Shown here: positions 20,128-49,615 of the stretch, in pieces
Position numbering within the stretch: the first letter of the stretch is position 1
Layout of the letters: each line of letters opens with the position of its first letter
Source of the DNA: Dictyostelium discoideum
Taxonomy: Eukaryota
Reading direction: 5' to 3'
DNA length: 64,000 nucleotides
Assembly (NCBI GenBank): GCA_000004695.1
Contig: CM000155.2
Span: 2,432,001-2,496,000 of the forward strand
Position numbers and translations under genes: made by a program
The notes under the pieces: model-generated
What the model was told of the DNA's origin: nothing
Databases searched by the model: none
What the model saw: the letters and a program-made list of their open reading frames with translations, nothing else

Positions 20128-23100
20128 TTAAAAATCATCATAATCATTACCTAATTTTACATATTCTTGAAGTTTCTTTCTGAAATTATCATAACCACTA
20201 TCTAATTGTTTTTGTAATTCAGCACCATCTTCTTTTGTGAGGGAAGCATTAAATTTCAAACCGAAATCCAAAGTTTTAGAGAATTCTTTAATGACTTCAC
20301 TAAGTTTTTGAATGTGTTCAGCATTATGATTTTGATATTGACCTTCAGCAAGGAAAGAGGAACAAATTGCCAATGGACCAGCGTTAACTTGTAAGAGTAA
20401 ACAACCTTGTAAATGAATTTGAAGGGTTTTAGTATTTGCAGGACGAGAATTTAATTCAGCCTTTAAGATGGTCACTTTCTTTTGAATCAATTCGATTGAA
20501 GCTTCGATTGGAGTTAATTCGATCTCTTCTTTCTTTACGATTGGTAATCTCTTTTTCAAGTAAGGGAAATAGTTTGGAGTGGTTAAAATGATTTTCTTTT
20601 TCCATTGTTCAGTTACGTTCTCGCTGTATTGAGTTTTACCATTCTTTGTGAAAGGAATTTCAAAGATGAATTTATTAAGATGAGTATTTTGTTGGAAAGG
20701 TGTAGTTCTCTCTTTTAATTCCTCTGGTAAGAGATAAGGATCCACTGAAATGATTTGAATGTAAATATGTTTAACATCTAAACTTGATAGATCCACTGGT
20801 TTATTATTTGGTAAGAGATGGAATTTATCTTCACCAAATTTATCACAATATTGTTTCTTTAAACGTTCGGATAAATCAGAAAGACGGACATAGTTATTCT
20901 CTTTGTAAACAAATTCTTTACCATGTAAATCTGGAATTAAATCTTGACAATAGAAAGCCACACGATAATAATTTGAAAAGATTCTTTGATTTACAACATT
21001 CTCACTAATGATTTGATTACAAAGTAAGACCAACTCTTGATAGGCATCTCTTTGTTTGGTCCAATCTTTTTGATGTTGATAAGTTGGTAATAAGAGACGA
21101 TAGGTTTCAGCTGCGGATTCAAAGTAACCAGATTTTTGAATTTGAATTGCATCCTTTAGAAGATTAATGAAACCAGTATCGGTGAAATGATCCAATTTAC
21201 AAATTTCACCTTCAACATCCTCCAACAATGATAGATCTGGTAGAGTTAATTCGTTGGCAACATTTGGTGAAACTGTAGTGAAATCGGTGGCTAATAACTC
21301 CTTTGGGAAACGATTTAATAATTTTAGATAACCACTAACCAATGCTGCTGCAATGATTGAAACTTGTGCAGCTTCTTCCATTGACTTTTGTTGTTTTAAA
21401 AATTCTTTAAAACTCTTTAACAAAGTGATACGAAGATCAGGACTTTCAATAAAGGTATTTGATAGATTATAGTATAGATCAGCTTTCATCTCTGGATCAT
21501 AGGAATGTTGCATAATCTTTACATTATTTTTAATTACACCGAATAAACGTTCTTTTAATTCATCTATTTGTTGAGCTATAGTTGGTTGAGTACGAGTAGC
21601 ACCATTTGATGATTGTTGAGAACCAATTGATGGTCTTGATGTCGATGTTGTTGTTGTTGTTGATTTAACATTACCTGATGAAACGCTTGTAGAGTATGAA
21701 GTTTTCAATAAAGAGTTATTACAATTTTGTTTAACAAACTTTGCAATTGAATCTAAACATGCATAGAGATAAGAGAATACGATTTCAACTGATTCAGTTT
21801 GAACATTCTTTTCAACAATTTCATTAAGAATTTGAGAGATTGCAACGGTTGAATGTAATTTCATACGTGAGAAATGACCCATCTCTTTCAAATTATTATA
21901 AATCATTAAATAGATTAAAGTGGTAGCATATTGTCTACTTGGTGAATGTCTACTACAACAATATTTGAAAACCAATTGAGTTAAATTTTCACAGATTGAA
22001 TTATTTTGTTTGAATAAAACATGTTTGAATTCACCAACCAATGTTGCCAATACACTAAACACAGGTTTAATTACAGAGAATGAAAGATCCTGTTTCAATA
22101 ATTGTAAAATGACACGGAATAGAATATGATCGGTATAAGCTACTGTAGTACCTTTTAAAAGATCCGATTTAAATTCTCTAATGAAAACAGTGAAAGCATT
22201 CAAAACGGTTAAAGTTACCTCTTGACAAAGATTACCATACATCATTTGAATTGTTTCTTGAGTAGTTGATCCTTGAGTGAAATCAACAGTTAAGAAAGTT
22301 ACACTACTTGCAAATGCACGTAATCCAGGATTTGGTGATTGTTGAGAATAAGCAGAACCAGTTGACTGACCTAAAACATTTGATGTATCTTTATTTACAT
22401 TTAATAGAGGTGATTGACTACCATTAATTGAATTTGAATTTGCATTTAAATTGCCAATATTTTCTTTATTATTTGAAGTTTGTGATGGTGAATTCATACT
22501 ATTTTTCATACCAGTTGAAGATGCTAATTGTTGTTCAATCATTTGTTTTGCTTTATCAGGTTTAATATTTGAAACATTTTGTTTTACACTACTTTTACTT
22601 GGTTTTTCTTTCTTTTTACCAGGTGAATCAGTATTGGCATCCAATGAAAGATTTGATTGATGAGTTTGAATTGATTTTGAACTACTTTCTAAATCGTCAT
22701 CTTTTTGATTGTATTCTTTTGCATAATCGAAAATTGATAAACAATTTGTAAGAATTTGGAAAAAGATAACATTATTTCTTGGAGTTTCTTTCTTCCACCA
22801 ATCAGAGATCGTATTGGTATTATTTAAATTCTTTACGATATAAATGAAACAAGTTAACCAAGAACGTTGTTCCTCTTGATCGAATTTACTAATGTAGGCA
22901 TCATAATGATAGACAATGATTGGAAGCAATGGGAAGAACAATGCTGCTATTCTTTCTCTCATCGCTGGTGAATTGTAGAGTGGATTTGTATCGATTTTCG
23001 ATATTATCTCACGAAGTGTATTGATTACTTTTAATCTCATCTCTTTATCACGAGCTGGTATCACTGCCGAGACCTCTTGTAACATTAAACCAATTATAAA

Positions 23101-24727
23101 ATGTTTTCTATAGAATACTTGGAATAAATCTTGAATCGATGGGAATGGTGATATTGGTGCGGGTGAATTCAATGCAATAAAAGAGTCATTTGATGCGAGT
23201 ACTCTGAAAAGACGTGATTTCAATTCGGTTAATTCCATAACGGTATTGGAACAATCTAAACCTGCAATATAATTTCTAATGATACGGAATACGAAACCAC
23301 GTGACATTATATCCAATAGATCATTGATAAAATGACCAATATTAACAATGAGTACTTTTGCAACCAATTGTTTTGCACCCTTTAATTGAACTAATAATTG
23401 ATCGAATAAAAAGCTAAATCTATTTAAAATCTCTTCACTAAATCTATTGGTACGATTACGACCTGATTTTAATTGATCACGATTTTGAATATCAGCAATC
23501 ATTGATTTCTTTATTATACCAAATAAAAACCATGAATATTGAATTGATAATAATATTAAATCATCTTGTCTTAATTGATTTGGATTTGGTATTGTTTGAG
23601 TTGTTGATGATGATGATGATGATGATGATGGTGTTGGTGTTGGTGTTGGTGGAGTTAAATTAGTAGTTGAAGAATTTTGTAATGATGATGACGATGTTGA
23701 TGATGCTGGTGGAGGTGATTGAACTATTGGTGTTGTAGTAATTGTTATAGTTGAGGATGAAGTGGTTGAAGCACTATTACCTTCTAATAATTGATTCCAA
23801 ACTTGAATAATATTATCATACAATGAAAAGGAGTGAGAATTTTCACTATTAAATACATAGGTTATATATGAAGTTAAAACATCCTCTGGTACAGAATCTA
23901 ATAGATTCAATAAGACATTAAAAGAATTTGCAGATACTTCAGCAGATAAACTTGTAATTGATTTAAATAATAAACGAATGATTGATGGGAAGAATTGAGT
24001 TTTTAAAGTATTTGGTACAGAAGGTAACTTTTTAATATTTTCATTTAAAAGTGTATGATTTGATTCAATCGATTCCTTTAAGAGATAAGCCAATGTTGGA
24101 TCTTGAGGATAAAGTGAAGAGATAACTCTAGTTTTGAAAGAGAATACCGGTTTTTTATTATCGACCCAAATCTTATGATTGATGGTATCCTTTGAATCCT
24201 TGATATCCTTTGCCTCTTGAGCTAAATAACGTGGGGGAAATACAGTGCCAACTGGTCTCTTATATTTACCATCGCAAATGATACGATCTTGTTCAAACAA
24301 TCTAACCACACTATAACCCAATGGAGTATGCATTGGATTCTCGGATTTCTTTGATTTCTTACAACCTAAATGATAAAATGTCACCAAAAGATGATGATTA
24401 GCCGTTAAATTGGATGGTAAATTAATTTTAATTTCATCAGAGAATTTTGGTTTCTTATTATGATAAACTACAGAGGTCAAGAATGAACAAGTCAATAAAG
24501 GTGTTGTACTTGTACCATGTGTATTCTTCATACCAATGGCTGTGACACTACTATCATCCTCCATCAATTTCACTTCTAAGAATATATTTCTAGCACTTCC
24601 TCTGTCACTTTTAAAATTGGTTAAATTTACACTCTTTGGATAAAAATACAAAACATTTGAAAATGTTAAATGTGGTTCTTTTGATTTTAATATTAATTCT
24701 TCATTACAACTATTATCTGTATGATGA

Positions 24728-24758
<31 letters not shown>

Positions 24759-25644
24759 TATTATTACTATTATTATGATGATAATCAATACCATTACTAC
24801 TATTATTATTTACTCCACTATTATTATTACTACTACCACCACCATTAGTATTATTACCACCACCACCACCAATTGAATTTGAGATTGAATTATTTGTAAA
24901 ATCATTTTTATCACCATCTCTATCTTTTAAAATTAAACTATCACCAGATGCGCTACAAGATATTTTTGAATTGAAATGAAGTATTTCTTTAATGATACCT
25001 TTACCATCTTGACCACTTTGAATTTGTGGTGGTAGAGTGTTTGGTATTTTAGTACGTAATAAATAATCGACTCTACCATTTACATTTTCATTATATAAAT
25101 ATTTATCATCACCAATCGATGATGAAACTTGTAAGATCTTTAAAATACATTCAAATAATGGATCTTTTGATGCTGCGCTACTACTAGATTTCTTCTCTTT
25201 ACTAACGAATGAATAGAGTTGATCAGATTTTGCTTTTATGAAATTGGTAACTCTAATTTCTGCTTCACCTTGATCGAAATTGAATTTTCTATTTTGGTCA
25301 AACAATTCCACACAACCCCAAATGAATGGTTGTTTAAATTTACCTAATCTTGAAACTCCTTCCTTCACCTCTGATTGAATCTTTGTTAATTCCTTTGCTT
25401 TTGGTGGATTAAAATAATGTTTTGTAGTTTCTTCTGGATCACCCAATATCACCTTATCAAAACAAATCACTAAATATAAATCTGAACTCTTTTCACATGA
25501 AAAAATACATTTTTGAATCTTTGTTGGTAATTGATTATCTAATGGATTAATTTGATTTAATGAATTAACTTGTGACTTTTTTTTTAAAAAAAAAAAAAAA
25601 AGAATATATATTAATAAAAATTTTAATATGATTTTTGTATTTTG

Positions 25645-25687
<43 letters not shown>

Positions 25688-26783
25688 ATAATTACATTTT
25701 TTGGTAATAAATCTAAATTTGTACCTAAATCAAAATGAAATTCTTCAGAAATAATACCAACTTCAGGTGATTTAGAATCGGAATCATCTACTTTATTTGC
25801 ATCAAATATAAACATTCTACCAAAAAATGGTTCAAAATTACCAATTTGTGGTTTAAAATCTGTACATTCTACTTTAAATTGAAATTCACTTTTTTTTTTT
25901 TTTTTTTTTTTTTTTTTATTAGTTTATATTTAATTTATATATATATACATATACATATAAATAATAATAATAATACTTACATATTTTCTAAAATTTTTTT
26001 ACCAACTTTTGGTGGATTAATAGTTGGTGATTCATCATTAATATAACAAGTTTGAAATAATGGAATTCTATTTGGAGATTTCATAAATTCAATTGATTTT
26101 TGATCAGGAGTTGGTTGAGTTGAGATTGCAATGATATCAGGATTTAAATCTTTTACAGAATCAGTTGGTGAGATTGAATCGAATTCACCATCTACTGAAT
26201 AGTTTTGAGATTGTAGTGGTTTTAAAGGTTGTGAATTCGATGGTGGTGGTAATGGATCACGAGTGACAACCGTCCAATCTTGGTTAAAGATATTCAATGA
26301 TTCTTGAACACCTTTGGGTAGTTTATCCATAATTGATGTAACCTCTGTTGGCACATTATTACCAACCAAATTTGTAACCCTTTTCTCTGTTGTCAATGAT
26401 AACAGGTCTGGTATTACTGATATCTTTAATGGGTCATTTATAATTGCTTTAGTAAAGAACGAATCTTCATAATCTTCAAATTTATATTCAATATCGATTC
26501 TACTCTTTTTTTTATCTGTATTATTACTTGATGGTGTAATTGGTGATACATTTACATTATTTGATGTATTACTTAAAATTGGTGTGCTGCCTGATGTTGG
26601 GTTATTATTATTACTATTTGGATTTGGTGAGGTTATTGGTTGTCCAAATTGTTGGCTTGCTCCAATTGGTGATTGCGACACTGACACTGAGGATGTAGAA
26701 TTATTGGTAGTAGATCCTACCATTTTTGATGTTGTTGCTGCTGATGTTGAATGACTATTGTTACTCATGGATGATGTATCCAT
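20128..26783 (-). CDS. DOCK-family Rho/Rac guanine-nucleotide exchange factor with DHR-1 (C2-like) and DHR-2 domains, about 2,120 aa. Three exons: 25981..26783, 25696..25816 and 20128..25575.
   Basis: The C-terminal DHR-2 motifs are VKHIYIQIISVDPYL, IFEIPFTKNGKT and LQGCLLLQVNAGPLAICSSFL. The DHR-1 region is RNIFLEVKLMEDDSS ... VVYHNKKPKFSDEIKINLP ... HLLVTFYHLG. The 1895-aa track ORF reads through intron 2 at 25576..25695, which is the poly-F stretch. The frame is open upstream of its 'M', and the true N-terminal exon is the 268-aa ORF 25977..26783, joined via AT|GTAAGT ... TTTTGGTAG. Confidence 0.8.
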
Positions 26784-30497: not shown

Positions 30498-31700
30498 TTT
30501 TAATTATGTGATTGATTTTAAAACAATAAACCAAAAGTTTTTTTTTTTTTTTGTAAATGCTGAGTGTGTGTTGGTTTTGTATAAAATTAAAAAAAAAAAA
30601 AAAAAAAAAAGAAATTTTTAAATTAAAAATTTTTTTTTTTTTTTTTTTTATTTTTTTTTTTAATTTTCTCTTTTTTTTTTTTTTTATTGTGAATGGTACA
30701 ATTGAAGTAATTGTAAAGCAACCAAAAAAAAAATTTTTTCTTAATTACTTTTTTTTTTTATTTTTTATTTTTTTTATTTTTTTTTTTTTTTTAATATTAA
30801 ATTTTTTTCTTGAATTTTAATTACAAATATTTTCATCTAATATTTTATTATTCTTATTCTCATCTCTTTTTTTATTTGAATTTTTTTTTATTTTTATTTT
30901 TTTTTATTTTATTTTACTTTTTTTATTTTACTTTTTTTAATTTTTATTTTTTATTTTTCTTTTTATTTTTTTTTTTATTATTTTTTTTATTTATTATTTT
31001 TCAATTATTTATTTTCATTTTTAATTATTATTTTTTGATCTTTAATTATTATTTTTTGAAACTTGAAACTTTTTTTTTAAAAATTTTGTTTATGAATTCC
31101 TAGTTAAAGCAACATGATAATAGTTTAATTTTTGTGTGTAATATTAAAGGAAAATAATAAATTAAAATATAGAAAAAAAAAAAAAATAAAAAAAAAATAA
31201 AAAAAATAAATAAATGGCACATACAAATAATTATTTATTTTCTTTTTATTTTTTAATAATTAAAAAAAAAAAATGAATTTAAAATTTTAATATTTGTAAT
31301 TTTTTTTTTATAAAAAAAATAAAAATGGAAATAATTATTATAACAATTATTTCATTTTTATTTTTTTATTTTTTTTTCATATTTTTTTTTTTTGATCATA
31401 AACCCAGAAACTTCATTTTTTTCATCAATTTTATTTTTTTTTAATTTTTTTTTTTTTTCATTTTATTTTTTATAAATTTTTTTTTTTTTTTTTCATTTTA
31501 TTTTTTTTTTCAATTTTTTTGATCATTTTTTTTTTTTTCGTTTTTTTTTTCATTTTTTCACATAAACTACAAAAAAAACATTTATTTGTTTTTTTTTTAT
31601 TTATTTTTATTTTTTTTTTTTTAAATATATATATTTATTTTTTTAGAAAAAAAAAAAAAAAAAAAAAAAAAATCAAAAAATTTAAAAAAGAAAAAATAAA

Positions 31701-34700
31701 ATGTCATACCAAATTACTAAAATCACTTCAGGTGAATTGAGAAATGGTATTGTCAAAGGTATAAAAACATCAGGTGTTATCAACAATTCATTTGGTGCTG
31801 TAAACTACACAATCAATACTAGTAACACTAGTAATAATATAAGTAATGGAAGAAGATCATATTCAAGCTCACTTTTTGAAGGTGAAGCAATGGGCGGTGG
31901 CGATAACAACCAACCAATAACAAAGAAAGCAAGATCACAAATCATTAGAGAAAAGAAACAAGCTGAACAGATTGAAACACAAAAAGCACAAGTGTTAGGG
32001 GAAGCATTAGATAAAGAATACGATGAAAAAGTATACGCCGGTCATTACAATGATAAAATACGTGCAAAATACACATCACAATATAGTGGTAGAGATTTAC
32101 CATACATTCACAGCACATTGGAGATGTTGACCAGTGGTAGAGCAATCGAAGAGAAAATGATATATCCAAAAAGTACATTTAAAATCGTAAAAGATAGACA
32201 TGGAAAAGAGATATACGTGAAGACAAATAAAGAGGATCTAGATGATTTCCTTGGGAGTGGTAGAAAAGGAGCACAAGTAAATTTGGATAATATTAGATTT
32301 GAGTTTGTACCAAAATACGAGCATGTACTTCATCCAGAAATCGCAAGATTATCCAAACCAAATCAACAACAATTCATTAGAATGGTGGAGACCATCTCTA
32401 GAGTTTTCTCCCAACTCGATCAATATTTAGAGAATTATCGTGAACAATTCACAAACAATGAATTGACCTACTTTGAAACCGCTTTGAAAATTTTACGTGA
32501 AGAGTATTTGACAAATCCAGAATTTAGAAAGTCATTCGCCAAAGATCAAGCCGCTGATGCCGCCGCTGCCGCTGCTACTTCCACTGCCGCTGCTAATTCC
32601 TCCTCCTCACCCTCATCATCATCATCTATAATTGGTTTAACAGAGTCAGAAGTTCAACAAGCAAATAGAGATGTTGAAATTTTATTAACCAATTTATTAA
32701 AGGATTTACATACTAAAAAGATGAAAGCAGGTATTAACTATGAGATTAAACGTTCAATGAAAAGTTTTACACTCACACCAGAGGACAGAGATATTATAGA
32801 GGAGGGAGCCTATCAAGAGAATCCAGATGCCACCTATGATCAAGCTGCTGCCGATGCATTAGGCGAAGAAATCGATGAGATTGATCTCGAGATTTTCGAA
32901 GATGATACATTGGAACGTGGTCGTTATTTAGAGTTTGATATGATGGCTTATCTCAAACAAATCGAATCCACTCAAGCAACACTCTACCTTCACTTAAAAT
33001 CACTTCCAACCGTAGAGGAGAGAAAAGCAGTGATCAAAGATTTCTCTCAATTTAAAAACATTAGAGATTCAATTAGAAATCAAAGATTCGTCACATCAAA
33101 AGAGTCTGGTCAATCATTGAATGATTTGATCACCTCTCATATGACATTCATGAACACTCATGAATCTATCGTTCAAAAATTAACAGAATTGGAAACAATC
33201 GTTGAAGATCCAGAAATGGTTCAAACTAAATTAAATCTTGTTGAAGCTATTAAATTAAATACAACTCTTTCACCATTGCAATTATTTGAAAAATATATTG
33301 CGCCAGGTGCATCAAGGGAAGATATTGCCATGGAATTTGGTGAAAAATTTGTTAACGATAAAAATAATGATAATAATGAAAGTCGTCAAGTTGAAATCGA
33401 TGAATTGGAGAGTTCAGAATTTAAAAATAAACTTGAACAATTAAAAGCAGCAAAACAAAAAGAAGAACCAAAAAAAGTTTTAAATCAATTAGAACAAGAA
33501 TTAGAGAATAAAGATAAAGAATCAGGTGAAGGTGCTGAAGTTGATGCTGCTGCTGATACTCAAGGTGTAATTGAATTACCATCAATTGATGAATTATCAA
33601 AATCACCAGAGTTAATTGGTTATTTGGAAGAGCTCAACCAAAACATTGGAAAGTCTAATTATCCAATGTATGAAAAACATAGAACCTATCTTTTAAGAGA
33701 ATTAGAGAGACTCAACGCCGATAGAGATGCCAAAGTAAACACATGGGAGTTTGGTTCACTCACTGAACAATTGAAACAACTTTTAATTAAAAATGGTGCC
33801 GCCTTTGAAGACCTTGGTAATAGATTCGATGAGTTGACCACAAACGTTGTCAATTCACCATTTTCCGCTAAATACCTTCCATTGACTCCAGAGGCATTGG
33901 TAGAGAAAGAGAAACAATTGGACAATCTCAAACAATTACTCGAGGCTAGAATTAAATCAAACTATACTTTAAAGAAGGGTGAGGAGGTTGAACAAATGAT
34001 TAGATTACGTGAAGGTATTCAAATGTTTAGAGAGATGGGTTTAGACACCGATATGGAACTCATTGAAAAGACTATCTTTGAAGATGGTGAGCTCGATACA
34101 CCAAGCGTCAATTCCATTAGAGAGTCTGATATCTTTGAGCCAGTTCAATTGATAAAATCCCTCTACAAATTAGGTCCACATAGATTCGAAAATGCCGTTC
34201 AAAGTCTCAAGAGATTACCATCCATGGTTTACTATTGTCAATACATTAACGATCGTTTCTTAAATACAAATGATACCTTTATCGCTCCACTCGATATCAA
34301 TGAGCCAACCTTTGAAAAATTCCCTCCACTTTTAAATTATAATGATGATTATGTCGAAGGTTTGGAGTATGCAATTCCAATTTTAAATTATGATGGTCCT
34401 AAAACACTTTTAAAATTAGGTACTGTTGAACATGAAGAACTTACCTTTGATCATGAAAAGGCAGGTGTTGAATTAGCAGATCAAGAAGAAGAAGAAGGAT
34501 TTTTTGATGTAGAAAAAATACAAGAAGAAATGAAAGGCCAAGAAAAAGAACAACACCAACAACAACATCAACAACAACAACAACAAGAGGAAGATGAAGA
34601 AGAATATGAAAAAGAAGGATATGAAGAGGAAGATGTAGAAGGACATGAGGAGGAAAAAACCACTAAAATTCTCGGACTTGATCCAGTAAGAAGGTTCGAT

Positions 34701-37700
34701 GAAGACTATGCTGAAGAATCAGAAATATTATCTCAATTTAGCAAGAAAAATAGAACCTTTTTAGGAGAAGGTAGTTTAAATCAATTGGGTGACGTTTATC
34801 AAGATCCACTCGAACTTATCCAAGATGATAATGTTGTTGACCCTGGTGATGTTCAATTATTCGATAAAAAGATCGACCAATTAATCTCTAGTAGAGAAGC
34901 GGCTAATATTGTCACAGAATCTGAAGTTCCTATTACTGATCCAACTCAATTTATTAAATATCATCCAAAAGCCAGAGGAGAATTGGTCAGTAAAGACGAT
35001 GAAGAATGGGTCGATAAAATGCAGCAAAAACTATCATCAGGCAATGAGAGGGATGACGACGAAGAATATGATTATGATGATTTTGCAGAGGTAGAAGATA
35101 AAGATCCAGTCAGCTTGGAGGAATACATGAAAATCGATGAAAAGCAAAATCAAATTTATGAAAAATACCACAGTTCACTTTCTCTTAATAAAATGAAAGT
35201 TCGTGAAGAATTCATTGATCAAATTCATCTCAATAGAATGAATCAAATATTAAATGGTAAAGATTATAAAAATGGTTTAATCAATTTGGATGAAATGATC
35301 AAAGAATCAATCGTTGAACAAAGACAAAAACAACAACAACCACCATTATCACCAGAAGATTTAAAACTATTAAAAGATGGTTTACGTGATGAATTTGAAT
35401 CCATTCAAAAAGATATTGATCAAGTTATCCTTGAAGCTAAAAATATTAATGAACTCTCTAAAATGATGGAATCTCTTAAAAAATCTGAACTTCTCCAAGC
35501 TGAAAAAGAAAGTAAACTTGAAGAAGAAGAAGATGACGAAGAAGAAGAAGAAGAAGAGGACAATCAAGAATTAGAACAACAAAAAGAAGAATATAGTCAA
35601 GAAGAAGAATACGATCAAGAAGAATATGAACAACAAGAAAAAGATATGGAAGATAACGAATCAAAACTTCAAAAAGAAATAAGTGATCAATTGGAACAAG
35701 AAGAACTTAAAGAAATAGAAGCTTTAAAAACGAAAAGAGATTTAATAGATGATGATGTAATCACACTCGAGAATAGATTTAGTGAATGGATAAATGCTGA
35801 TAATTTAGGTGTAAATGAAAATGAACTCAAAAAATTAGAAAGTAATATTAAAAATCCTGAAGAATTAAACTTTCCAGAATTGTTAGATGACCGAAAGATT
35901 ATAGTCAAAGATCCAAAATCAATCTTAAAAATGAAAGAAGGAGCACTCAAACAATTAAAAGATAATTGGAATAAAGATGTACTCGTGTTGGAAGCTGATG
36001 AATTAGTTAATCCAAAAACCGTAAGAGCAGAGGACACTGAATCTATCCCAGATGATCTTACTCTTACCGATGAAGATGATCAAAATTTAGATGTTGAAGA
36101 TGCTGGTGACGTTGATTTTGATGTTGAAGAAAATAAAACCGATACAAAACTATTCATCAAAGGTGATGATATCCTTGCTTCTCAAAAAGTCGTAGAAGAT
36201 CAAGATATTGATGTTCTCCTCAATAGAGATAACCATACTGAAGTTAGTGAAGACAAAGAAGAAGAAGATGATGATGATGATGATATAGATAACATTGGAA
36301 TCTCAAATTTGGATGAAAATTCCGGTTCAGCCATTGATGCCTTTAAAAATCCAATTTTATCTGTTTCAGAAGAATCAATTTCAGAATTCAAGCCACCATC
36401 AACATCAGAAGTTACCCGTACAGAATCTGAAACATTAACATTCACCTTGAAGGAATTAAGTGAATATGAAGAGGTGATTCATCAACGTAAACTTTTAAGA
36501 ATTTATCGTTCATTCCCAAACTTTGGTATTTCTGATGAGTCACAGTTCAAAACTGATGAACTCATTTACGATGAAGATGGTGATAACGATTTCGCTGATA
36601 AATTATTCCTCATGGAAGTTAATACACTCTTAAACAAAGGTAATATCATGGATCAAGCAAGCAGACCAATCTTTGAAAATCAAAATGATGATCGTTTCAA
36701 TAATGTTGGTGCAGATGAAAGATTGGCCCAAGAGATGGGTTATGACAAAGATGACCTTTACGATGAAGATGAATCCCAAATGACTGAAGTCGAACAAGTA
36801 TTGCCACAAGTTCCAAATTCCGAAAATGATATGGCAGCCGCAAGAGCCTTTGAACTTGAAATGCAAACTAAAGAAATTCAACAATGGCGTGACGTTCCTC
36901 GTCTTGAAAATGCAAAGATTGTCGATATCTCTCGTCATGTTAAAGTAACCACAGCCGGTCGTGTTCAATCTTTTTCAGTAACCATTTTCAATGGTGATGG
37001 TAATGGTACCGCTGGTATGGGTTATGGTAAAGGTGATAGTGCATCATCTGCCTTAAGAAGAGCTTTCAAAGATTCCGAAAGAAACGCCTTCAGTTTGGAT
37101 AGATACAACCATCTCACTCTTCCATCTGGTTTAGATTTCAAATATAGAAGTACCAAAGTTAAATTCATCAAGAGTAGACCAATGGATTTTATGGATCATC
37201 GTGGTATTAAACCAAGTCTCATCTTACCAACTATCGGTCTTCATGGTGTCACCTTTAGAACCTATGGTAAGAAAGATTGGAACTCTGTCTTATTAGCCAT
37301 CCAAAAATGTCTACCACATTATACAAATCCTCAAGAAGCTGCTCGTATCATGGGTAAGAAATTCGTAACTCCAAATAGAGAAAAAGCTCAAAACAAAACT
37401 CTTCATCAATTATTAAAATCTAAACTCGAAACCAGAAATAATGATCCTTACAATTTAGGTATGGTTAGTAAATTCCTCTTTGATGTCGAAGATAAACCAG
37501 ATATCAATGAAATTAAAGAACGTAGATATCAAGAAGAAATTGATCAATTATTCGAACGTTATCCAATCGCTCCTTCAACACCTTTCTTGGGTGATAATGT
37601 TGAAGATTTTAAATTTAAAGGTATTAATATTAATGGTAATGGTAATGGTAATGGTAATCGTAAACATATTGATAAAATGCATCAAAAAGGTAGAAAACAT

Positions 37701-37724
37701 GGACGTAATACAAGAAATTTATAA
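31701..37724 (+). CDS. Giant 2,007-aa acidic, coiled-coil-rich protein with a C-terminal ribosomal protein uS5 (S5) domain. It is a candidate mitochondrial-ribosome uS5 with an N-terminal extension of about 1,700 aa. It is a single exon.
   Basis: A 6-kb stop-free ORF in a 78% AT genome. Around residues 1740-1900 the sequence IVDISRHVKVTTAGRVQSFSVTIFNGDGNGTAGMGYGKGDSASSALRRAFKDSERNAFSL ... GLHGVTFRTYGKKDWNSVLLAIQKCL aligns with E. coli S5, recalled as [60 protein letters not shown] ... GSTNPINVVRATIDGL. The remainder is E/D/K/Q-rich low complexity. Confidence 0.7.
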   Translation: MSYQITKITSGELRNGIVKGIKTSGVINNSFGAVNYTINTSNTSNNISNGRRSYSSSLFEGEAMGGGDNNQPITKKARSQIIREKKQAEQIETQKAQVLGEALDKEYDEKVYAGHYNDKIRAKYTSQYSGRDLPYIHSTLEMLTSGRAIEEKMIYPKSTFKIVKDRHGKEIYVKTNKEDLDDFLGSGRKGAQVNLDNIRFEFVPKYEHVLHPEIARLSKPNQQQFIRMVETISRVFSQLDQYLENYREQFTNNELTYFETALKILREEYLTNPEFRKSFAKDQAADAAAAAATSTAAANSSSSPSSSSSIIGLTESEVQQANRDVEILLTNLLKDLHTKKMKAGINYEIKRSMKSFTLTPEDRDIIEEGAYQENPDATYDQAAADALGEEIDEIDLEIFEDDTLERGRYLEFDMMAYLKQIESTQATLYLHLKSLPTVEERKAVIKDFSQFKNIRDSIRNQRFVTSKESGQSLNDLITSHMTFMNTHESIVQKLTELETIVEDPEMVQTKLNLVEAIKLNTTLSPLQLFEKYIAPGASREDIAMEFGEKFVNDKNNDNNESRQVEIDELESSEFKNKLEQLKAAKQKEEPKKVLNQLEQELENKDKESGEGAEVDAAADTQGVIELPSIDELSKSPELIGYLEELNQNIGKSNYPMYEKHRTYLLRELERLNADRDAKVNTWEFGSLTEQLKQLLIKNGAAFEDLGNRFDELTTNVVNSPFSAKYLPLTPEALVEKEKQLDNLKQLLEARIKSNYTLKKGEEVEQMIRLREGIQMFREMGLDTDMELIEKTIFEDGELDTPSVNSIRESDIFEPVQLIKSLYKLGPHRFENAVQSLKRLPSMVYYCQYINDRFLNTNDTFIAPLDINEPTFEKFPPLLNYNDDYVEGLEYAIPILNYDGPKTLLKLGTVEHEELTFDHEKAGVELADQEEEEGFFDVEKIQEEMKGQEKEQHQQQHQQQQQQEEDEEEYEKEGYEEEDVEGHEEEKTTKILGLDPVRRFDEDYAEESEILSQFSKKNRTFLGEGSLNQLGDVYQDPLELIQDDNVVDPGDVQLFDKKIDQLISSREAANIVTESEVPITDPTQFIKYHPKARGELVSKDDEEWVDKMQQKLSSGNERDDDEEYDYDDFAEVEDKDPVSLEEYMKIDEKQNQIYEKYHSSLSLNKMKVREEFIDQIHLNRMNQILNGKDYKNGLINLDEMIKESIVEQRQKQQQPPLSPEDLKLLKDGLRDEFESIQKDIDQVILEAKNINELSKMMESLKKSELLQAEKESKLEEEEDDEEEEEEEDNQELEQQKEEYSQEEEYDQEEYEQQEKDMEDNESKLQKEISDQLEQEELKEIEALKTKRDLIDDDVITLENRFSEWINADNLGVNENELKKLESNIKNPEELNFPELLDDRKIIVKDPKSILKMKEGALKQLKDNWNKDVLVLEADELVNPKTVRAEDTESIPDDLTLTDEDDQNLDVEDAGDVDFDVEENKTDTKLFIKGDDILASQKVVEDQDIDVLLNRDNHTEVSEDKEEEDDDDDDIDNIGISNLDENSGSAIDAFKNPILSVSEESISEFKPPSTSEVTRTESETLTFTLKELSEYEEVIHQRKLLRIYRSFPNFGISDESQFKTDELIYDEDGDNDFADKLFLMEVNTLLNKGNIMDQASRPIFENQNDDRFNNVGADERLAQEMGYDKDDLYDEDESQMTEVEQVLPQVPNSENDMAAARAFELEMQTKEIQQWRDVPRLENAKIVDISRHVKVTTAGRVQSFSVTIFNGDGNGTAGMGYGKGDSASSALRRAFKDSERNAFSLDRYNHLTLPSGLDFKYRSTKVKFIKSRPMDFMDHRGIKPSLILPTIGLHGVTFRTYGKKDWNSVLLAIQKCLPHYTNPQEAARIMGKKFVTPNREKAQNKTLHQLLKSKLETRNNDPYNLGMVSKFLFDVEDKPDINEIKERRYQEEIDQLFERYPIAPSTPFLGDNVEDFKFKGININGNGNGNGNRKHIDKMHQKGRKHGRNTRNL

Positions 37725-38029: not shown

Positions 38030-40785
<2,756 letters not shown>

Positions 40786-41910: not shown

Positions 41911-43089
41911 TATTTCAAAATTTAAAAAATTCTATACTAAAATAGGCTATTATAAATGGGAGAGTTATATAGCTTGTAGATATCCAAAATATTTTTCATA
42001 TTTTCATAAACCAACTCGAATTAATGATATTATAGATTCAATTGTAAAAGCTATATTGCTTTCAAAACCATGTAAAGGATCATATAAATTTTTATTAGAA
42101 TTTATTGAAAGTGTTAATGATTATATATGTACAGTATGTATAATACTTAACAACATTCACATACACACACACACCACTCTCTCTTCACTTTAATAATATT
42201 TTAACATATTTTATTTTTTTTTTTAAAAAATAAAAAAAAAAAATAAAAAAATAATAAGAAAGTTGCAGATAAAATTTATGCAATTATTTTAGATAATAAT
42301 TATGAAGTACTTGGTTTTGATCATTATAATTTATTTTTTATATTGATAATAATAGCTGATAAAATTAGTGCAAATCCACAGGGTATTATAGGATATTTTA
42401 TTAATATTAGCATTTTAGAGATTCCTAATGAAAAAAAACATATGGAATATTTGTTAAAATTCAAAAATTTTATTGTCTATTATTACAAAAAAAATACACA
42501 AGAAGTTTTGAACCAAGAGTTATTTTCATTTCTTGCAGCATTTCATGGACCAGATTTACAAAAACAAAACCAACAATATTTATTAGATTTGGTTTATGAT
42601 ATTAAAAGTTTTCCAGGAAAAGAATACTTGGTTAAAGAACTACTTTCACATGGTTATTACGATTTATTTTTAATGGAATATGCAGAAACAAAAAAACCAG
42701 CTTTTCATTTCTTTTTGTTGAACCATTTACCATTTAATGAATTTCTCAATCTTTCAAAGAATTTCTATTATCATAGTTTTAGAAAATTTTTTAAGAGATC
42801 ACCACCATGGAATTCTGATGCATTCTTAAGAGCATTGTTTCATTCTAATCAGGTACTTTTAAATCCAACTAAAACTGAATACATTTTCAAAATGGTTGAA
42901 GCTTCAACATCTTTATCAACAAATAATATTAAATCATTATATGATGCAGCTTTTCAATTTTCATTAAAATCATCATCATCATCACATTTCTCATCTACTG
43001 TATCAACTTGTTCACCATCTTTATCACCAATATCAACTTTATTTAAATCACATAAATTTTTATCAGAATTATTTGATGAAACTCTATCA

Positions 43090-43130
<41 letters not shown>

Positions 43131-43297
43131 AGTAAAAAAATTATTCTTAACAAATAATTTAGAATTCTTTTTAAAAGTATTAACTATTGATAATATTGAT
43201 AAATATTTATTACAAATTTTTGGTAAAAATAAATTATTATCTTCAAAAATTTATATTGATAAAATCAATTCTAAATTTAATAGTAATAATAATAATG

Positions 43298-43350
<53 letters not shown>

Positions 43351-44936
43351 CAAAAATTTATAAATTATTTACCATTATCAACAGAATTTAAAGAAAGAAT
43401 TTTATATATGTTAAGTTGTGATAAATCAATTGCACAATTTCAAAGATTAAATATAGTTATGGTTTGCAAACATTTCTTTTCTACATTTAGTAAACTTATT
43501 AATAATTCAACGATTGTACCAATCATTTTAAGTTATAATCAATTTAGTAATCTTATTAGTAATTCATTTAAAAATTTTAGATCAAATTCAATGATTTCAT
43601 TTCAAAAAGTGAAATATTTAAAGATCTTTAACGATAGAATTCCAAAACTAACAAACACTGAAAAAATTGAAGAATCAAAATTATCATTAAGATCAAAACA
43701 ATTGAAAAATATATTATCACCACCACCACCACCAATGACAACTAAATTATTTACATCAACAATGTTAACCCATGAAAGTTTTTTTGGTTCAATCTATTTT
43801 TCAATTGACTTTTTCACTGGATTAGAAATTCTTGAAATTGATCAACTCATTGAATTTCATCAAGTTTTATTACTCAAATCACTAAAAAAGATAATATTAC
43901 ATCTTGAACAAAGTGAAGGTTCATCATTTGGTCCTGAAGATAAAGAGAAAATCGATCTTTTAGTAAATGGTGGTATTTTCAATGATTTTACAACTGATGG
44001 ATATATTGTTGAATTACATTTCAAACATTATAAAAATAAAAATCATGGTATAGATATGTCATTAGTGAAATCAGTTTCAATGGGATTATCGAAATTCTTT
44101 GATTTATTCGATGATGATATGGCATCAATACCAATACTTTATTTAGATTTAAATGATTCTCCAACAAGAAATTCACTAGAAACCTTTAAAAAATATTTAA
44201 AATCATCTCCAAAGAAATTATTATTAAATGAATTACATTTACATTTTTCAGTTCATAGTAGTAGCATAATAGGTAATAATAATAATAATAATAATAATAT
44301 TTTAAGTATTGAAAATATTTTAGAGAATTTCAAATCATTCAGTAAAATTCAAACATTATATTTCCATATTACATCCAATGAAATACCAATACCATCTAAA
44401 GTAACCATACAATCAGTTATTAAATCAACACTCGAATTTATTTTATCAAACTTCAAAATGGTCAACAAAGTTTTATTCATCGATGAATATGGTCTTCCAT
44501 TGAATATTGATTGGTATCATATTTTAAATATATTACCTAAAGTGAATATAAATACTTTTGATTTCATAGGGTTTCATATTGATAACCAACCTGATATCAC
44601 AAAGGCTATTGAAGGAAATAATAAAAATAATTTATCAATTAACCAACAACAAAAAGAACAACCAACAAAAACAACAACAACATCAACAAAAACAACAACA
44701 ATAACACCGACAGTAGCAGAAACAAAACAACCAAAAGCAGCAAAAACATCAGAAACAAGACAACCAACACCAATAAAAACAAAACAAACAACAACAACAC
44801 CAACACCAACACCAATAAAAACAACACCAACACCAACACCAACAACAACACCAACACCAACACCAACAACAAAAATACCAACACCAACACCAACAACCAC
44901 AAAAACAACAACAACACCAACACCAACAACAACACC

Positions 44937-44982
<46 letters not shown>

Positions 44983-45486
44983 CCAACACCAACAACAACA
45001 CCAACACCAACAACAACACCAACAACCTCAAAACAACCTCAAAAACCTAAAGAACAATCGCATGAAAACATTGCTTTTACAGATTTTTATGGTTTTAATG
45101 AAAAGAATAGTGAAAAAGATAGCGAAGATGAAGATGAAGATGAAGATGAAGATGAAGATGAAGATGAAGATGAAGATGAAGATGAAGATGATGAGGATAA
45201 GTTTTCGGATGATTGTAGTTCTGACTCATTTTATTTTAGAGAGTACTCTGATAAAAGAGAACTTGGTCAAACTGATGATGGACAATTCACTCCATCAAAA
45301 TATTCCAGAACGAGACATATGTATCATGGTGGTGGTGGTGATGATTCTGATGATTCTGATGATGGCTCAGACTCTGATGAAGCCGCTAACTTTTTTGCTC
45401 ATCAATTAGCAAGAGCTTCATTACATGGAATGTTGGGTGCTTTAGGTTTTCTTGATAATTCCGATAGTGACGATGATTCTGATTGA
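41465..45486 (+). CDS. Lineage-specific protein (copy B, intact) of about 1,250 aa with poly-Asn tracts, a Thr/Pro-rich mucin-like segment and an acidic (ED)n tail. Inferred 3 exons: 41465..41820, 41907..~42137 and ~42292..45486.
   Basis: Exon 1 is MNLANILDKALEELREKEL ... KSVYFHEFELSKEDLNIVFK, ending at AA|GTAATT. Exon 2 (acceptor A(n)AG) is KIISKFKKFYTKIGYYKWESYIACRYPKYF ... ESVNDYICTV, ending at a conserved CAGTAT|GTAT donor also seen in copy A. Exon 3 carries the 1,047-aa track ORF, whose 'M' is TTG and whose frame is open upstream to a TTTTAG acceptor. A hand-count frame inconsistency of 1 nt in exon 2 means the junctions need RNA evidence. Confidence 0.5.
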
Positions 45487-47909: not shown

Positions 47910-49615
47910 GGAACCAAGTTAATTAGAAAATTTCCAGATTTTTAACTTTTTAAAGAAAAATAAAAAAGATAGAAAGAAAATAAAATGAAAATCACAAACA
48001 ACACCACAAATATTAAGCAACACAAATGCCTACAAAAAATAAGCGAAATTGTGGATAAAACTCAATTAAAAAAAAAACAATTCAAATACGTCATAAACAT
48101 CAATCACGAACCAGACGATAAAATAAAAAAAGATTTAGAAAAAAGTTTGGACAAAAAAGATGTTTTAATCAAAAGTAATAATACATTCAAAATTCTCACA
48201 GACAGTATTAGTACAGTAATCTATTTTGTAAATATGTTTGATGCAGAATTAAAAGGACAATTTATAACCACTATAAGACCAAAAAATATGTATACAGATT
48301 TTGATTGGTATAAATCACTCACAGAAATAGAATGGGTAATAGAAAATGAAGGATGTAAACTAATTAAATCAGAAATTAAAGGCGAAACTCTAATTATCAA
48401 AACAGTGAAAAGAGTCGTAGAAGAATTTGACACTATCATTGAACTAGACAATCTAACATTAATTGGACACTCCAACAAAGGATGGAGAGATCAAACCTCA
48501 TTACCAGAAAATCAAGAAGAAAACAAAAATAAAAAACAATCAGATGAACAACAACCACAATCTACATCAGAACAAATACCAAAACAAGGAAAAAGAACAA
48601 TCATTATCCCACCAATCACATCCTCATCTAATGATAAAACATTTATGGCCCTAGATGATACAGCTCAAAAGGTAATAGATGCATCACTAGAAAACGTAGA
48701 TGAACTAACAAGAATAGAGAATGAGATCAATACACAATCGATAAACAATCAAGAAATTAAAACAAAATCAGAAAAACCTATCGAACCACCATCTCCATAC
48801 AATACACCAATAAAACAACACGGCGAAACAAAGAGACTAACAACGGAAGAAAAACTTAGAGAGGTAAATGATATCTTCGACTTCACCAGCCCAAACACTG
48901 ATGCAATAAGAAAAATAGAATTCCCACTTTCAATCCCTTCAAATCAATGGTTCTTCTCCTCTCCAATAAAACATATCATGAGTTTCAGCCCAACCTATGG
49001 TACACCATCGAAAATTATCGATTCACCAAGTAAATTGTTAAACACACCAAAAAACAAACAACAAGACAAAACAAACAGGACCAACAAAACACCAGTCAAA
49101 CCAAAATTGGGTGAATATGGACAAAAAAGCATAAAAACAAAAATGGATGAAGATATAGACAACTTCAACAAGGAAATTCTAAAACAAATCAGTAAATCAA
49201 AAAACCCCACAAACACACAAGACCAACAACACAATGAACAAAGTAAAGATCAGTTAGAAGACAAAATAAACCAGAAACTTCAAAAGGTAGATAAAAATCT
49301 ACCCCAAATAAAACTATAAAGAAAAACACAATAAGAATAGGTGTTTGGAACGTCCAAGGATCCAATACCATCCAATCTGCCAGCATAATAAACACCGTTT
49401 TAGACAACAACAAGCTGGACGCAGCACTTCTAACTGAAACAAATATAAAAACAAATAAAATTTACTCAATAAATCAACAATATAAAAACAAAATAACACA
49501 CCACGCACCAATTGATAAAACAGGACAAGGGGTGTCACAAATCATCATCAACACCCGCAATAGAACTTCCTAAACATCTCAAAAAATACAATAATTCACT
49601 CAGTACTTTCTATAA

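What the first reader, a model, noticed from the sequence alone, without database searches (positions are those of the whole stretch)
31701..37724. 2,007-aa protein ending in a bona fide ribosomal uS5 domain
A single 6-kb exon encodes a huge acidic, coiled-coil protein whose last 250 residues carry both halves of the uS5 (S5) fold. The dsRBD-like half contains TIFNGDGNGTAGMGYGKG and the C-terminal half contains GLHGVTFRTYGKKDWNSVLLAIQKCL, with convincing alignment to bacterial S5. Cytosolic uS5 (RPS2) is about 270 aa. Mitochondrial MRPS5 is 300-430 aa in yeast and human. A uS5 fused to a low-complexity extension of about 1,700 aa is therefore exceptional. It suggests either a massively expanded Dictyostelium mitoribosomal protein or a moonlighting fusion. 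The N-terminus is basic and hydroxylated with few acidic residues, which is compatible with a mitochondrial presequence.
Basis: partly seen in the sequence, partly recalled or inferred. Interest (0 to 1): 0.6.

Follow-up and report, generated by a model that had tools for sequence, protein, structure and literature searches.

The report
Giant mitochondrial ribosomal protein uS5m
This Dictyostelium gene encodes the mitochondrial version of ribosomal protein S5 carrying an unusually long (~1,700-residue) N-terminal extension, which would make it one of the largest ribosomal proteins known, although the database entry already exists and giant mitoribosomal proteins are a trend in this group of amoebae.

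Summary
The 2,007-codon ORF at 31701-37724 (+) is real; the chance of such an open frame is about 1e-73. It is D. discoideum DDB_G0293090 (Q54CA5), annotated only as "hypothetical / S5 DRBM domain-containing". Residues 1738-1888 are a bacterial-type S5 core. The N-half passes Pfam (52.6 bits against a cut-off of 27.1). The C-half is missed by Pfam S5_C and is significant only in a targeted alignment (z 6-11).

It is the only non-cytosolic S5-type protein listed for the genome, and dictyostelid mtDNA has no rps5. Published phosphopeptides from purified mitochondria map inside the extension. So it is very probably the mitoribosomal uS5m.

The extension is not all low complexity. Residues ~90-900 are a conserved, sequence-orphan, probably helical module (dN/dS 0.43). 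Residues ~900-1600 are a fast-evolving polyacidic linker (dN/dS 0.74). A 60-residue post-S5 tail is the most constrained part (0.21).

Open questions: whether the extension stays attached in the mature ribosome, and how far it extends beyond D. discoideum and D. citrinum. It is best described as a new variant of a known kind, of moderate interest.

The parts
31380..31700 (+). AT-rich 5' flank and putative promoter (poly-T tracts, then a poly-A run up to the ATG)
   Evidence: Read directly from the sequence. GC is about 10% over 30500-31499. No coding potential upstream of the ATG.
31701..37724 (+). Complete CDS of DDB_G0293090 (Q54CA5): 2,007 aa, about 231 kDa, pI 4.6, single exon
   Evidence: ORF listing. 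100% identical to XP_629314.1. Chance of an open frame this long is about 1e-73. The D. citrinum orthologue is a single exon in conserved synteny.
31701..31862 (+). Putative mitochondrial presequence, aa 1-54, with a conserved NGRRS[Y/F]|S candidate MPP R-3 cleavage site
   Evidence: One acidic residue in aa 1-54, and rich in S, T, N and K/R. The motif is conserved in D. citrinum. The cleavage site is inferred from the textbook R-x-[FYL]|[SA] rule, and amphipathicity is only weak. No targeting predictor was available.
31968..34400 (+). Conserved N-terminal module, aa ~90-900; a sequence orphan, probably alpha-helical
   Evidence: 70-88% identical to D. citrinum in most 50-aa blocks, with dN/dS 0.43. 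The only hit among 1.84 billion representatives is D. citrinum. No Pfam or PDB match. The AF2 model is unusable (pLDDT 34.8), with mostly helices by DSSP. The phosphopeptide at aa 791-807 maps here.
34401..36497 (+). Polyacidic, fast-evolving, phosphorylated linker, aa 901-1599
   Evidence: 30% D+E and net charge -127. 14-58% identity with indels between species. dN/dS 0.74. Within D. citrinum, 9.3% substitutions and 26 indel columns. Phosphopeptides at aa 906-920, 998-1015 and 1585-1596 map here.
36498..36911 (+). Pre-S5 segment, aa 1600-1737: a conserved patch at aa 1600-1650, then an acidic stretch
   Evidence: 76% identity over aa 1601-1650. dN/dS 0.75 for the whole segment. No PDB match.
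36912..37100 (+). uS5 N-terminal dsRBD-like domain, aa 1738-1800
   Evidence: PF00333 scores 52.6-55.9 bits against a cut-off of 27.1. Aligns to bacterial and mitochondrial uS5 chains in PDB. Targeted alignment gives z of about 19.
37101..37364 (+). Diverged uS5 C-terminal domain, aa 1801-1888
   Evidence: Covered by TIGR01021 up to position 148 of 156 and by PDB S5 alignments up to residue ~159. A gap-free 46-aa local alignment at aa ~1840-1886 gives z 6-11 with 0 of 2000 shuffles. However, PF03719 is not detected and the domain alone gets no PDB hit. The bacterial GTGxxAGG loop is replaced by SRPMDFMDHRGIKPS (alignments).
37365..37550 (+). Post-S5 tail, aa 1889-1950; the most constrained segment of the protein
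   Evidence: 84-90% identity. dN/dS 0.21. 0 of 62 differences within D. citrinum. Not covered by the alignments to solved uS5 chains, which end at about aa 1885-1891.
37551..37724 (+). Variable basic C-terminal end, aa 1951-2007 (with a GN repeat), plus the TAA stop
   Evidence: 52-57% identity with indels. dN/dS 0.86. The stop codon and A-rich 3' flank are visible in the sequence.

Best explanation
This is the nuclear gene for the D. discoideum mitochondrial small-subunit ribosomal protein uS5m. It carries a lineage-specific N-terminal extension of about 1,680 residues and a 119-residue C-terminal tail.

Shown:
- The ORF is real and under purifying selection.
- It contains a bacterial-type S5 core.
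- Peptides from the extension occur in purified mitochondria.

Inferred:
- The ~231-kDa precursor is made in the cytosol and imported through a presequence of about 54 residues (candidate MPP site RRSY|S).
- The S5 core (aa 1738-1888) takes the canonical uS5 position next to uS3m and uS4m at the mRNA entry channel of the mitochondrial small subunit.
- The constrained tail (aa 1889-1950) makes lineage-specific contacts there.
- The extension projects from the solvent side. It consists of a flexible, phosphorylated polyacidic tether (aa ~900-1600) carrying a conserved helical module of about 800 residues (aa ~90-900).
- That module most plausibly serves as extra structural shell or as a docking platform near the mRNA entrance, alongside the similarly enlarged mtDNA-encoded uS3m and uS11m of dictyostelids.

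I put the identification as uS5m at about 0.85. I put at about 0.5-0.6 the further claim that the whole extension remains covalently attached in the assembled ribosome.
For: - ORF and chance.
- S5 N-domain above the Pfam cut-off.
- Full-length collinear alignment to bacterial S5, and to the uS5m chains of Tetrahymena (6z1p_Bf), Arabidopsis (6xyw_Bd), yeast (5mrc_EE, 8d8j_E) and Neurospora (6yw5_EE).
- Bacterial-type model scores above the eukaryotic/archaeal model.
- C-half significant in a targeted test.
- Only two S5-type dsRBD proteins are listed for the genome, the other being cytosolic rps2: PMC4894637.
- No rps5 in the dictyostelid mtDNA ribosomal-protein cluster: PMC13583974.
- Four phosphopeptides from sucrose-gradient-purified mitochondria map within the extension, and the authors label the protein 'mitochondrial small ribosomal subunit': PMC8584165.
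- Same architecture, single exon and conserved synteny in D. citrinum. The frame is open in three independent assemblies.
- Selection gradient: S5 core 0.28, tail 0.21, N module 0.43, linker 0.74. The same gradient appears within D. citrinum.
- Dictyostelid mtDNA encodes giant rps3 and rps11 ORFs.
Against: - There is no direct evidence that the protein is in the mitoribosome, or that the extension and the S5 core are on one mature polypeptide.
- The protein falls far below the NCBIfam equivalog cut-offs (41.4 against 164).
- Pfam S5_C is not detected.
- The mitochondrial fraction in PMC8584165 also contained proteins such as GSK3, Rab1A and LAMTOR1, so its purity is imperfect.
- The presequence has only weak amphipathicity.
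- All reported peptides come from the extension and none from the S5 core. That fits equally well with a cleaved product.
- The position on the ribosome and the role of the extension are inferred from textbook 30S architecture. They were not tested.
Confidence: 0.8

Rival explanations
1. Polyprotein precursor. The 231-kDa product is imported and then cleaved in or near the acidic linker. This releases a normal-sized uS5m (about 300-400 aa), which enters the ribosome, and a separate N-module protein of about 90 kDa with its own mitochondrial function.
For: The linker and the pre-S5 segment evolve almost neutrally (dN/dS 0.74-0.75) and tolerate indels even within a species, as a spacer would. 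The N module and the S5 core are separately constrained. All published peptides come from upstream of the S5 core. Mitochondrial precursors that are cleaved into two proteins are known, for example yeast Arg5,6 (from my own knowledge, not checked here).
Against: No cleavage site or processing evidence is available. The phosphopeptides are spread through the linker up to aa 1596, so the linker itself persists in mitochondria rather than being degraded. Long attached extensions are the rule for mitoribosomal proteins, and dictyostelid uS3m and uS11m ORFs are also giant.
Confidence: 0.2
2. Moonlighting, non-ribosomal protein. The S5-like dsRBD module has been co-opted as an RNA-binding domain in a large mitochondrial (or other) scaffold, and the true uS5m is encoded elsewhere or has been lost.
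For: The C-half of the S5 core has diverged: no PF03719 hit and the GTGxxAGG loop is lost. Even the S5 core is only about 80% identical between species whose neighbouring genes are 89-96% identical. The score is far below the equivalog cut-offs.
Against: No other candidate uS5m appears in the InterPro census of the genome or in dictyostelid mtDNA. As far as I know, uS5 is present in every mitoribosome structure solved so far. Both S5 halves are collinear with bacterial S5 over essentially its full length. Within the protein, the S5 core and tail are the most constrained parts. Fast evolution is typical of mitoribosomal proteins.
Confidence: 0.05
3. Artefact. The long ORF would be a mis-assembly or a spurious fusion of two adjacent genes, an upstream acidic protein and a small uS5m gene.
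For: None was found beyond the a-priori oddity of the size.
Against: The frame is open for 2,007 codons in AT-rich DNA (about 1e-73 by chance). The same continuous ORF occurs in two independent D. citrinum assemblies (1,973 and 1,980 aa). No AT-rich, intergenic-like dip occurs inside the ORF. The internal Met residues just before the S5 core are not conserved in D. citrinum. Peptides confirm that the upstream part is translated.
Confidence: 0.02

Closest known systems
Mitochondrial ribosomal protein uS5m (MRPS5 in human; Mrps5 in yeast; At1g64880 in Arabidopsis)
   Same: It has a bacterial-type S5 core (dsRBD-like N-domain plus C-domain) near the C-terminus, preceded by a mitochondrion-specific N-terminal extension. 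It is nuclear-encoded and has an N-terminal targeting region. The core aligns collinearly with solved uS5m chains.
   Different: The extension is about 1,680 aa, whereas whole solved uS5m chains are 293-515 aa and Andalucia uS5m is 187 aa. The extension contains an orphan conserved module of about 800 aa and a polyacidic linker of about 700 aa. There is an extra, constrained 60-aa post-S5 tail. The S5 C-domain has diverged beyond Pfam detection.
Bacterial ribosomal protein S5 (RpsE, TIGR01021)
   Same: These are the best sequence matches, with E about 1e-10 over residues 13-159 of chains about 165 aa long. The domain order is the same, and the GDGNG...G.GKG motif of the N-domain is conserved.
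   Different: The score is far below the equivalog cut-off (41 against 164 bits). The GTGxxAGG loop of the C-domain is replaced. This protein is twelve times longer, eukaryotic and nuclear-encoded.
Giant lineage-specific mitoribosomal proteins: kinetoplastid mS48 (1,788 aa) and mS49 (1,181 aa), and the dictyostelid mtDNA-encoded rps3.1/rps3.2 and rps11.2 ORFs
   Same: These are very large small-subunit proteins that add lineage-specific protein mass to the mitoribosome (PMC8998825; PMC13583974). uS3 is the textbook neighbour of uS5 at the mRNA entry site.
   Different: mS48 and mS49 are wholly mitochondrion-specific proteins with no bacterial core. Here the mass is an extension of a universal protein. 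At 2,007 aa the precursor is longer than mS48, which a 2022 review called the largest. No structure exists for any amoebozoan mitoribosome, so the comparison is by size only.

Membership tests
uS5 family (Ribosomal_S5, PF00333 + PF03719) | S5 N-terminal dsRBD-like domain above the Pfam gathering score | tested here: met
   PF00333 scores 52.6 bits against a cut-off of 27.1, at aa 1739-1797 and profile positions 4-62 of 65. It scores 55.9 bits on the sub-sequence and 59.6 bits in D. citrinum.
uS5 family (Ribosomal_S5, PF00333 + PF03719) | S5 C-terminal domain (PF03719) present directly after the N-domain | tested here: inconclusive
   PF03719 is not reported even at E<=10, and the C-half alone gets no PDB hit at E<=1. 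On the other side, the TIGR01021 alignment runs to position 148 of 156, the PDB S5 alignments run to residue ~159, and a targeted gap-free alignment of aa ~1840-1886 gives z 6-11 with 0 of 2000 shuffles. The AF2 model is too poor to test the fold (pLDDT 35.0).
Bacterial-type (organellar) uS5, as opposed to cytosolic eukaryotic/archaeal uS5 | Better match to the bacterial S5 model than to the eukaryotic/archaeal model, with a separate cytosolic uS5 gene in the genome | tested here: met
   TIGR01021 gives 41.4 bits over 143 positions. TIGR01020 gives 29.6 bits over the N-domain only. Cytosolic rps2 is a different gene, DDB_G0293742 (PMC4894637). Both scores are below the equivalog cut-offs, so the assignment rests on their ranking and on coverage.
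NCBIfam equivalog rpsE_bact (TIGR01021) | Whole-protein score at or above the curated cut-off (164.05 bits) | tested here: not met
   The score is 41.4 bits. This is expected for a diverged mitochondrial orthologue, and I do not file the protein as a bacterial equivalog.
Mitoribosomal uS5m | Mitochondrial localisation | tested here: met
   This rests on the literature plus a mapping done here. Four phosphopeptides from sucrose-gradient-purified mitochondria (PMC8584165) map exactly to aa 791-807, 906-920, 998-1015 and 1585-1596 of this ORF. Caveat: that fraction also held some non-mitochondrial proteins.
Mitoribosomal uS5m | No alternative uS5m gene (mtDNA-encoded rps5 or a nuclear paralogue) | tested here: met
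   The dictyostelid mtDNA ribosomal cluster goes from rpl6 to rps13 with no rps5 (PMC13583974 Table 1). The InterPro census lists only rps2 and this gene as ribosomal dsRBD proteins (PMC4894637 Table 1). I did not scan the whole D. discoideum genome myself.
Mitoribosomal uS5m | Physical incorporation into the mitochondrial small subunit at the uS5 position | not testable with these tools
   No amoebozoan mitoribosome structure or purified-mitoribosome proteome was found in the library.
Mitoribosomal uS5m | Cleavable N-terminal mitochondrial presequence | tested here: inconclusive
   aa 1-54 contain one acidic residue and are rich in S, T, N and K/R. An RRS[Y/F]|S motif is conserved. The hydrophobic moment is only 0.27-0.33, and no dedicated predictor was available.

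The most novel reading that the evidence does not exclude
The full 2,007-aa chain, less its presequence, is a stoichiometric subunit of the dictyostelid mitoribosome. That would make it the largest ribosomal protein described so far. Its orphan helical module, held on a phosphorylated polyacidic tether, would form a new lineage-specific functional platform at the mRNA entry site together with the giant uS3m and uS11m. One possible role is mRNA or translational-activator recruitment, regulated by phosphorylation.
Probability: 0.3. Interest if true: 0.65.

Novelty: new variant of a known kind. Interest (0 to 1): 0.45.

Why it matters
Mitoribosomes are a textbook case of lineage-specific protein accretion, yet no structure exists for any member of Amoebozoa. 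If the intact 225-kDa chain is assembled, a universal core protein (uS5) would carry more added mass than any solved mitoribosomal protein. That mass would sit next to the decoding and mRNA-entry region, in an organism whose mtDNA-encoded uS3m and uS11m are also gigantic. This points to an unusually protein-rich entry side of the dictyostelid small subunit, and it gives a concrete reason to solve that structure in a genetically tractable model. The phosphosites in the extension also offer a possible route for regulating mitochondrial translation. On the modest side, the gene is already in the databases, its mitoribosomal nature has already been assumed in one paper, and long fast-evolving extensions are common both in Dictyostelium proteins and in mitoribosomal proteins.

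Tried and rejected
1. The search for homologous proteins on sub-regions aa 90-900 and aa 1597-2007 returned nothing, not even the self-hit. The frames were correct, so this is a limit of the word prefilter and says nothing about absence.
2. An exhaustive phmmer of aa 90-900 against 1.84 billion representatives found only D. citrinum. I do not read this as absence in other dictyostelids. The gene evolves very fast: 54% identity overall, against 89-96% for neighbouring genes.
3. Two metagenome scans with the S5 core plus tail found no relatives. I could therefore not determine how far the extension reaches phylogenetically.
4. AF2 on the N module (pLDDT 34.8) and on the S5 core plus tail (pLDDT 35.0) gave unusable models from 2-sequence alignments. 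I ran no fold searches because the matches would be meaningless.
5. PDB sequence and profile searches of the extension hit only polyubiquitin chains. Those scores come from summing one weak ~34-aa match over tandem repeats. No single stretch passes, mono-ubiquitin is not hit, and the match crosses a ubiquitin-ubiquitin junction. I rejected this as an artefact.
6. Weak Pfam hits to UBA_2 and UCR_14kD in the pre-S5 segment (E 0.01-0.04, below their cut-offs) were rejected.
7. Self-BLAST found no internal repeats.
8. An internal start giving a short S5-only isoform is not supported. Met1711 (MAAARAF...) and the nearby Met residues are not conserved in D. citrinum, and there is no AT-rich dip inside the ORF.
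9. The supplementary tables of the Dictyostelium and Acanthamoeba mitochondrial proteome papers are not held.
10. Literature searches for the gene ID, the UniProt ID, mrps5 plus Dictyostelium, and amoebozoan mitoribosome cryo-EM found no description of the giant architecture.

Full report
**Observation.** The window has the composition of Dictyostelium DNA: coding regions are 30-39% GC and intergenic DNA is 10-19% GC. A single ORF runs from 31701 to 37724 on the + strand and encodes 2,007 aa. With the ORF's own base composition a stop is expected in 8% of codons, so an open frame of 2,007 codons has a chance probability of about 1e-73. The other five frames of the same stretch carry 98-302 stops. 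The ATG is preceded by poly-T tracts and a long poly-A run in DNA of about 10% GC. The TAA is followed by A-rich sequence. The protein is 100% identical to D. discoideum AX4 DDB_G0293090, also known as XP_629314.1 and UniProt Q54CA5. It is named only "hypothetical protein" or "S5 DRBM domain-containing protein".

**The S5 core.**
- Pfam reports exactly one family on the whole protein: Ribosomal_S5 (N-terminal domain, PF00333) at aa 1739-1797, scoring 52.6 bits against a gathering score of 27.1.
- NCBIfam's bacterial S5 model aligns aa 1738-1882 to positions 6-148 of 156 (41.4 bits). The eukaryotic/archaeal model covers only the N-domain (29.6 bits). Both are far below the equivalog cut-offs.
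- Against PDB sequences, the best matches are bacterial S5 chains aligned over residues ~13-159 (E about 1e-10). Mitochondrial uS5m chains of Tetrahymena, Arabidopsis, yeast and Neurospora follow.
Pfam S5_C (PF03719) is not detected in either species even at E<=10. The C-half alone finds nothing in PDB at E<=1.
- A targeted local alignment of aa 1803-1890 against the C-halves of the three bacterial chains printed gives a collinear, gap-free 46-residue match (aa ~1840-1886). Its z-score is 6-11, and 0 of 2000 shuffles reach the observed score.
- So the C-domain is present but strongly diverged. The bacterial GTGxxAGG loop is replaced by SRPMDFMDHRGIKPS (alignments).
- The protein does not end in S5. 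A 119-residue tail follows the core.

**Why this is the mitochondrial uS5m.**
- An InterPro census of dsRBD proteins in D. discoideum lists only two ribosomal S5-type entries: cytosolic rps2 (DDB_G0293742) and this gene (PMC4894637 Table 1).
- The dictyostelid mitochondrial ribosomal-protein cluster runs ...rps8, rpl6, rps13, rps11..., with no rps5 (PMC13583974 Table 1). uS5m must therefore be nuclear-encoded.
- A phosphoproteome of sucrose-gradient-purified D. discoideum mitochondria lists Q54CA5 as "mitochondrial small ribosomal subunit", with sites S802, S805, T915, S1006 and S1587 (PMC8584165).
- I mapped the four peptides to aa 791-807, 906-920, 998-1015 and 1585-1596 of this ORF. Each is preceded by K or R. 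The extension is therefore translated and found in the mitochondrial fraction.
- Two caveats apply. That fraction also contained some non-mitochondrial proteins. And none of the reported peptides comes from the S5 core.
- The first 54 residues have one acidic residue and are rich in S, T, N and K/R. They end in RRSY|S, which is RRSF|S in D. citrinum. This fits the textbook R-3 MPP cleavage motif, but amphipathicity is weak. The presequence is therefore plausible but not shown.

**Anatomy of the extension.** The D. citrinum orthologue has the same architecture. It is 1,973 aa in one assembly and 1,980 aa in a second. It is a single exon in conserved synteny: DOCK gene, AP sigma subunit, a 320-aa gene, this gene, a 1,193-aa gene, then a THH1/TOM1 gene. 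Conservation along the length is strongly modular, and Nei-Gojobori dN/dS follows it.

| Region (aa) | Identity to D. citrinum | dN/dS | Within D. citrinum |
|---|---|---|---|
| N module, ~90-900 | 70-88% in most blocks | 0.43 | 2.8% substitutions |
| Acidic linker, ~900-1600 | 14-58%, with indels | 0.74 | 9.3% substitutions, 26 indel columns |
| Pre-S5 segment, 1600-1737 | 76% in the 1601-1650 patch | 0.75 | 4.4% substitutions |
| S5 core, 1738-1888 | about 80% | 0.28 | 0 of 151 |
| Post-S5 tail, 1889-1950 | 84-90% | 0.21 | 0 of 62 |

- The linker is 30% D+E with a net charge of -127.
- The extension is therefore not simply low complexity. It is a conserved module of about 800 residues, carried on a polyacidic, phosphorylated, indel-tolerant tether of about 700 residues.
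- The N module is a sequence orphan. An exhaustive phmmer against 1.84 billion representatives finds only D. citrinum. Pfam, NCBIfam and PDB searches find nothing real. There are no internal repeats.
- AlphaFold2 with the two available sequences gave unusable models (pLDDT 34.8 and 35.0). They suggest only that the N module is mostly helical and that the S5 N-half has a beta-beta-beta-alpha order. I ran no fold search.

**How fast it evolves, and what that implies.** Neighbouring genes are 89-96% identical at protein level between D. discoideum and D. citrinum. This gene is 54% identical overall and about 80% even in the S5 core. The failure to find the N module in more distant species therefore cannot be read as absence. 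Two word-index searches failed technically, with no self-hit, and two metagenome scans were empty. I could not determine whether other dictyostelids or other Amoebozoa share the extension.

**How it most likely works.**
- Shown: the ORF is real and under selection, it has a bacterial-type S5 core, and its extension is translated and present in mitochondrial preparations.
- Inferred from textbook 30S and mitoribosome architecture: after import, the S5 core sits with uS3m and uS4m at the mRNA entry channel on the solvent side of the small subunit. The constrained tail makes lineage-specific contacts there.
- Also inferred: the N-terminal extension projects outward. Its acidic tether carries a helical module that acts as extra shell or as a docking platform near the mRNA entrance.
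- The dictyostelid mtDNA-encoded rps3 (two ORFs of 2,481 and 3,048 bp) and rps11.2 (4,311 bp) are also gigantic. Another probable mitochondrial small-subunit protein, DDB_G0279527, is at least 846 aa long. The giant uS5m therefore fits a lineage-wide enlargement of the small subunit rather than being an isolated curiosity.

**Rivals.**
- The main rival, at about 0.2, is that the precursor is a polyprotein cleaved in the near-neutral linker into a normal-sized uS5m and a separate N-module protein. Nothing here excludes it, and all published peptides lie upstream of the core.
- A non-ribosomal moonlighting role (about 0.05) is disfavoured because no other uS5m candidate exists, and because the S5 core and tail are the most constrained parts of the protein.
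- An assembly or annotation artefact (about 0.02) is excluded by three independent assemblies and by the peptides.

**Comparison with what is known.** Solved uS5m chains are 293-515 aa, and Andalucia uS5m is 187 aa. A 2022 review names kinetoplastid mS48 (1,788 aa) as the largest mitoribosomal protein and states that no amoebozoan mitoribosome structure exists (PMC8998825). I found none published later. At 2,007 aa this precursor exceeds mS48. It is unusual because the extra mass is an extension of a universal core protein, not a new mitochondrion-specific subunit.

**Novelty and verdict.** The database entry exists, and one paper already labels it a mitochondrial small-subunit protein. No paper in the searchable library discusses its size or architecture. 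I classify it as a new variant of a known kind: uS5m with an exceptional modular extension. Interest is moderate at 0.45. It would be striking for mitoribosome specialists if the intact chain is assembled, but it fits known trends, and for now it lacks direct ribosome-level evidence.

Noticed in passing
window 47985-49319 (+) and 50983-52317 (+): Two 444-aa ORFs are 99% identical (438/444) and lie about 3 kb apart, with no Pfam match. At the syntenic position in D. citrinum, the gap between the 1,193-aa gene and the THH1/TOM1 gene is only about 1.7 kb. These ORFs therefore look like a recent D. discoideum-specific insertion and tandem duplication.
   Followed up: partly
window 38031-40640 and 42019-45486 (+), compared with L001 12248-16161: The single D. 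citrinum 1,193-aa gene downstream of the uS5m gene matches two separate stretches of the window by tblastx. This suggests tandem paralogues in D. discoideum. The first copy contains a long poly-Asn tract.
   Followed up: no
window aa 744-778 of the ORF (about 33930-34034): The segment ...IKSNYTLKKGEEVEQMIRLREGIQMFRE... weakly resembles the end of one ubiquitin unit plus the start of the next (LRLRGG|MQIF). It therefore scores against polyubiquitin chains only. I judged this a repeat-summing artefact, but the resemblance across a unit junction is curious.
   Followed up: partly
PMC13583974 Table 1 (Cavenderia pseudoaureostipes mtDNA); PMC8584165 Table: Dictyostelid mtDNA encodes very large uS3m ORFs (2,481 + 3,048 bp) and a very large uS11m ORF (4,311 bp). 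Another probable nuclear-encoded mitochondrial small-subunit protein, DDB_G0279527, is at least 846 aa long. The whole dictyostelid mitochondrial small subunit may be unusually protein-rich.
   Followed up: partly
window 20128-25815 (-), 54187-59208 (+), 61284-63116 (-): The neighbouring genes are a DOCK/zizimin-family GEF, a large THH1/TOM1-3 domain protein and a RasGEF. They are ordinary and unrelated to the finding.
   Followed up: yes
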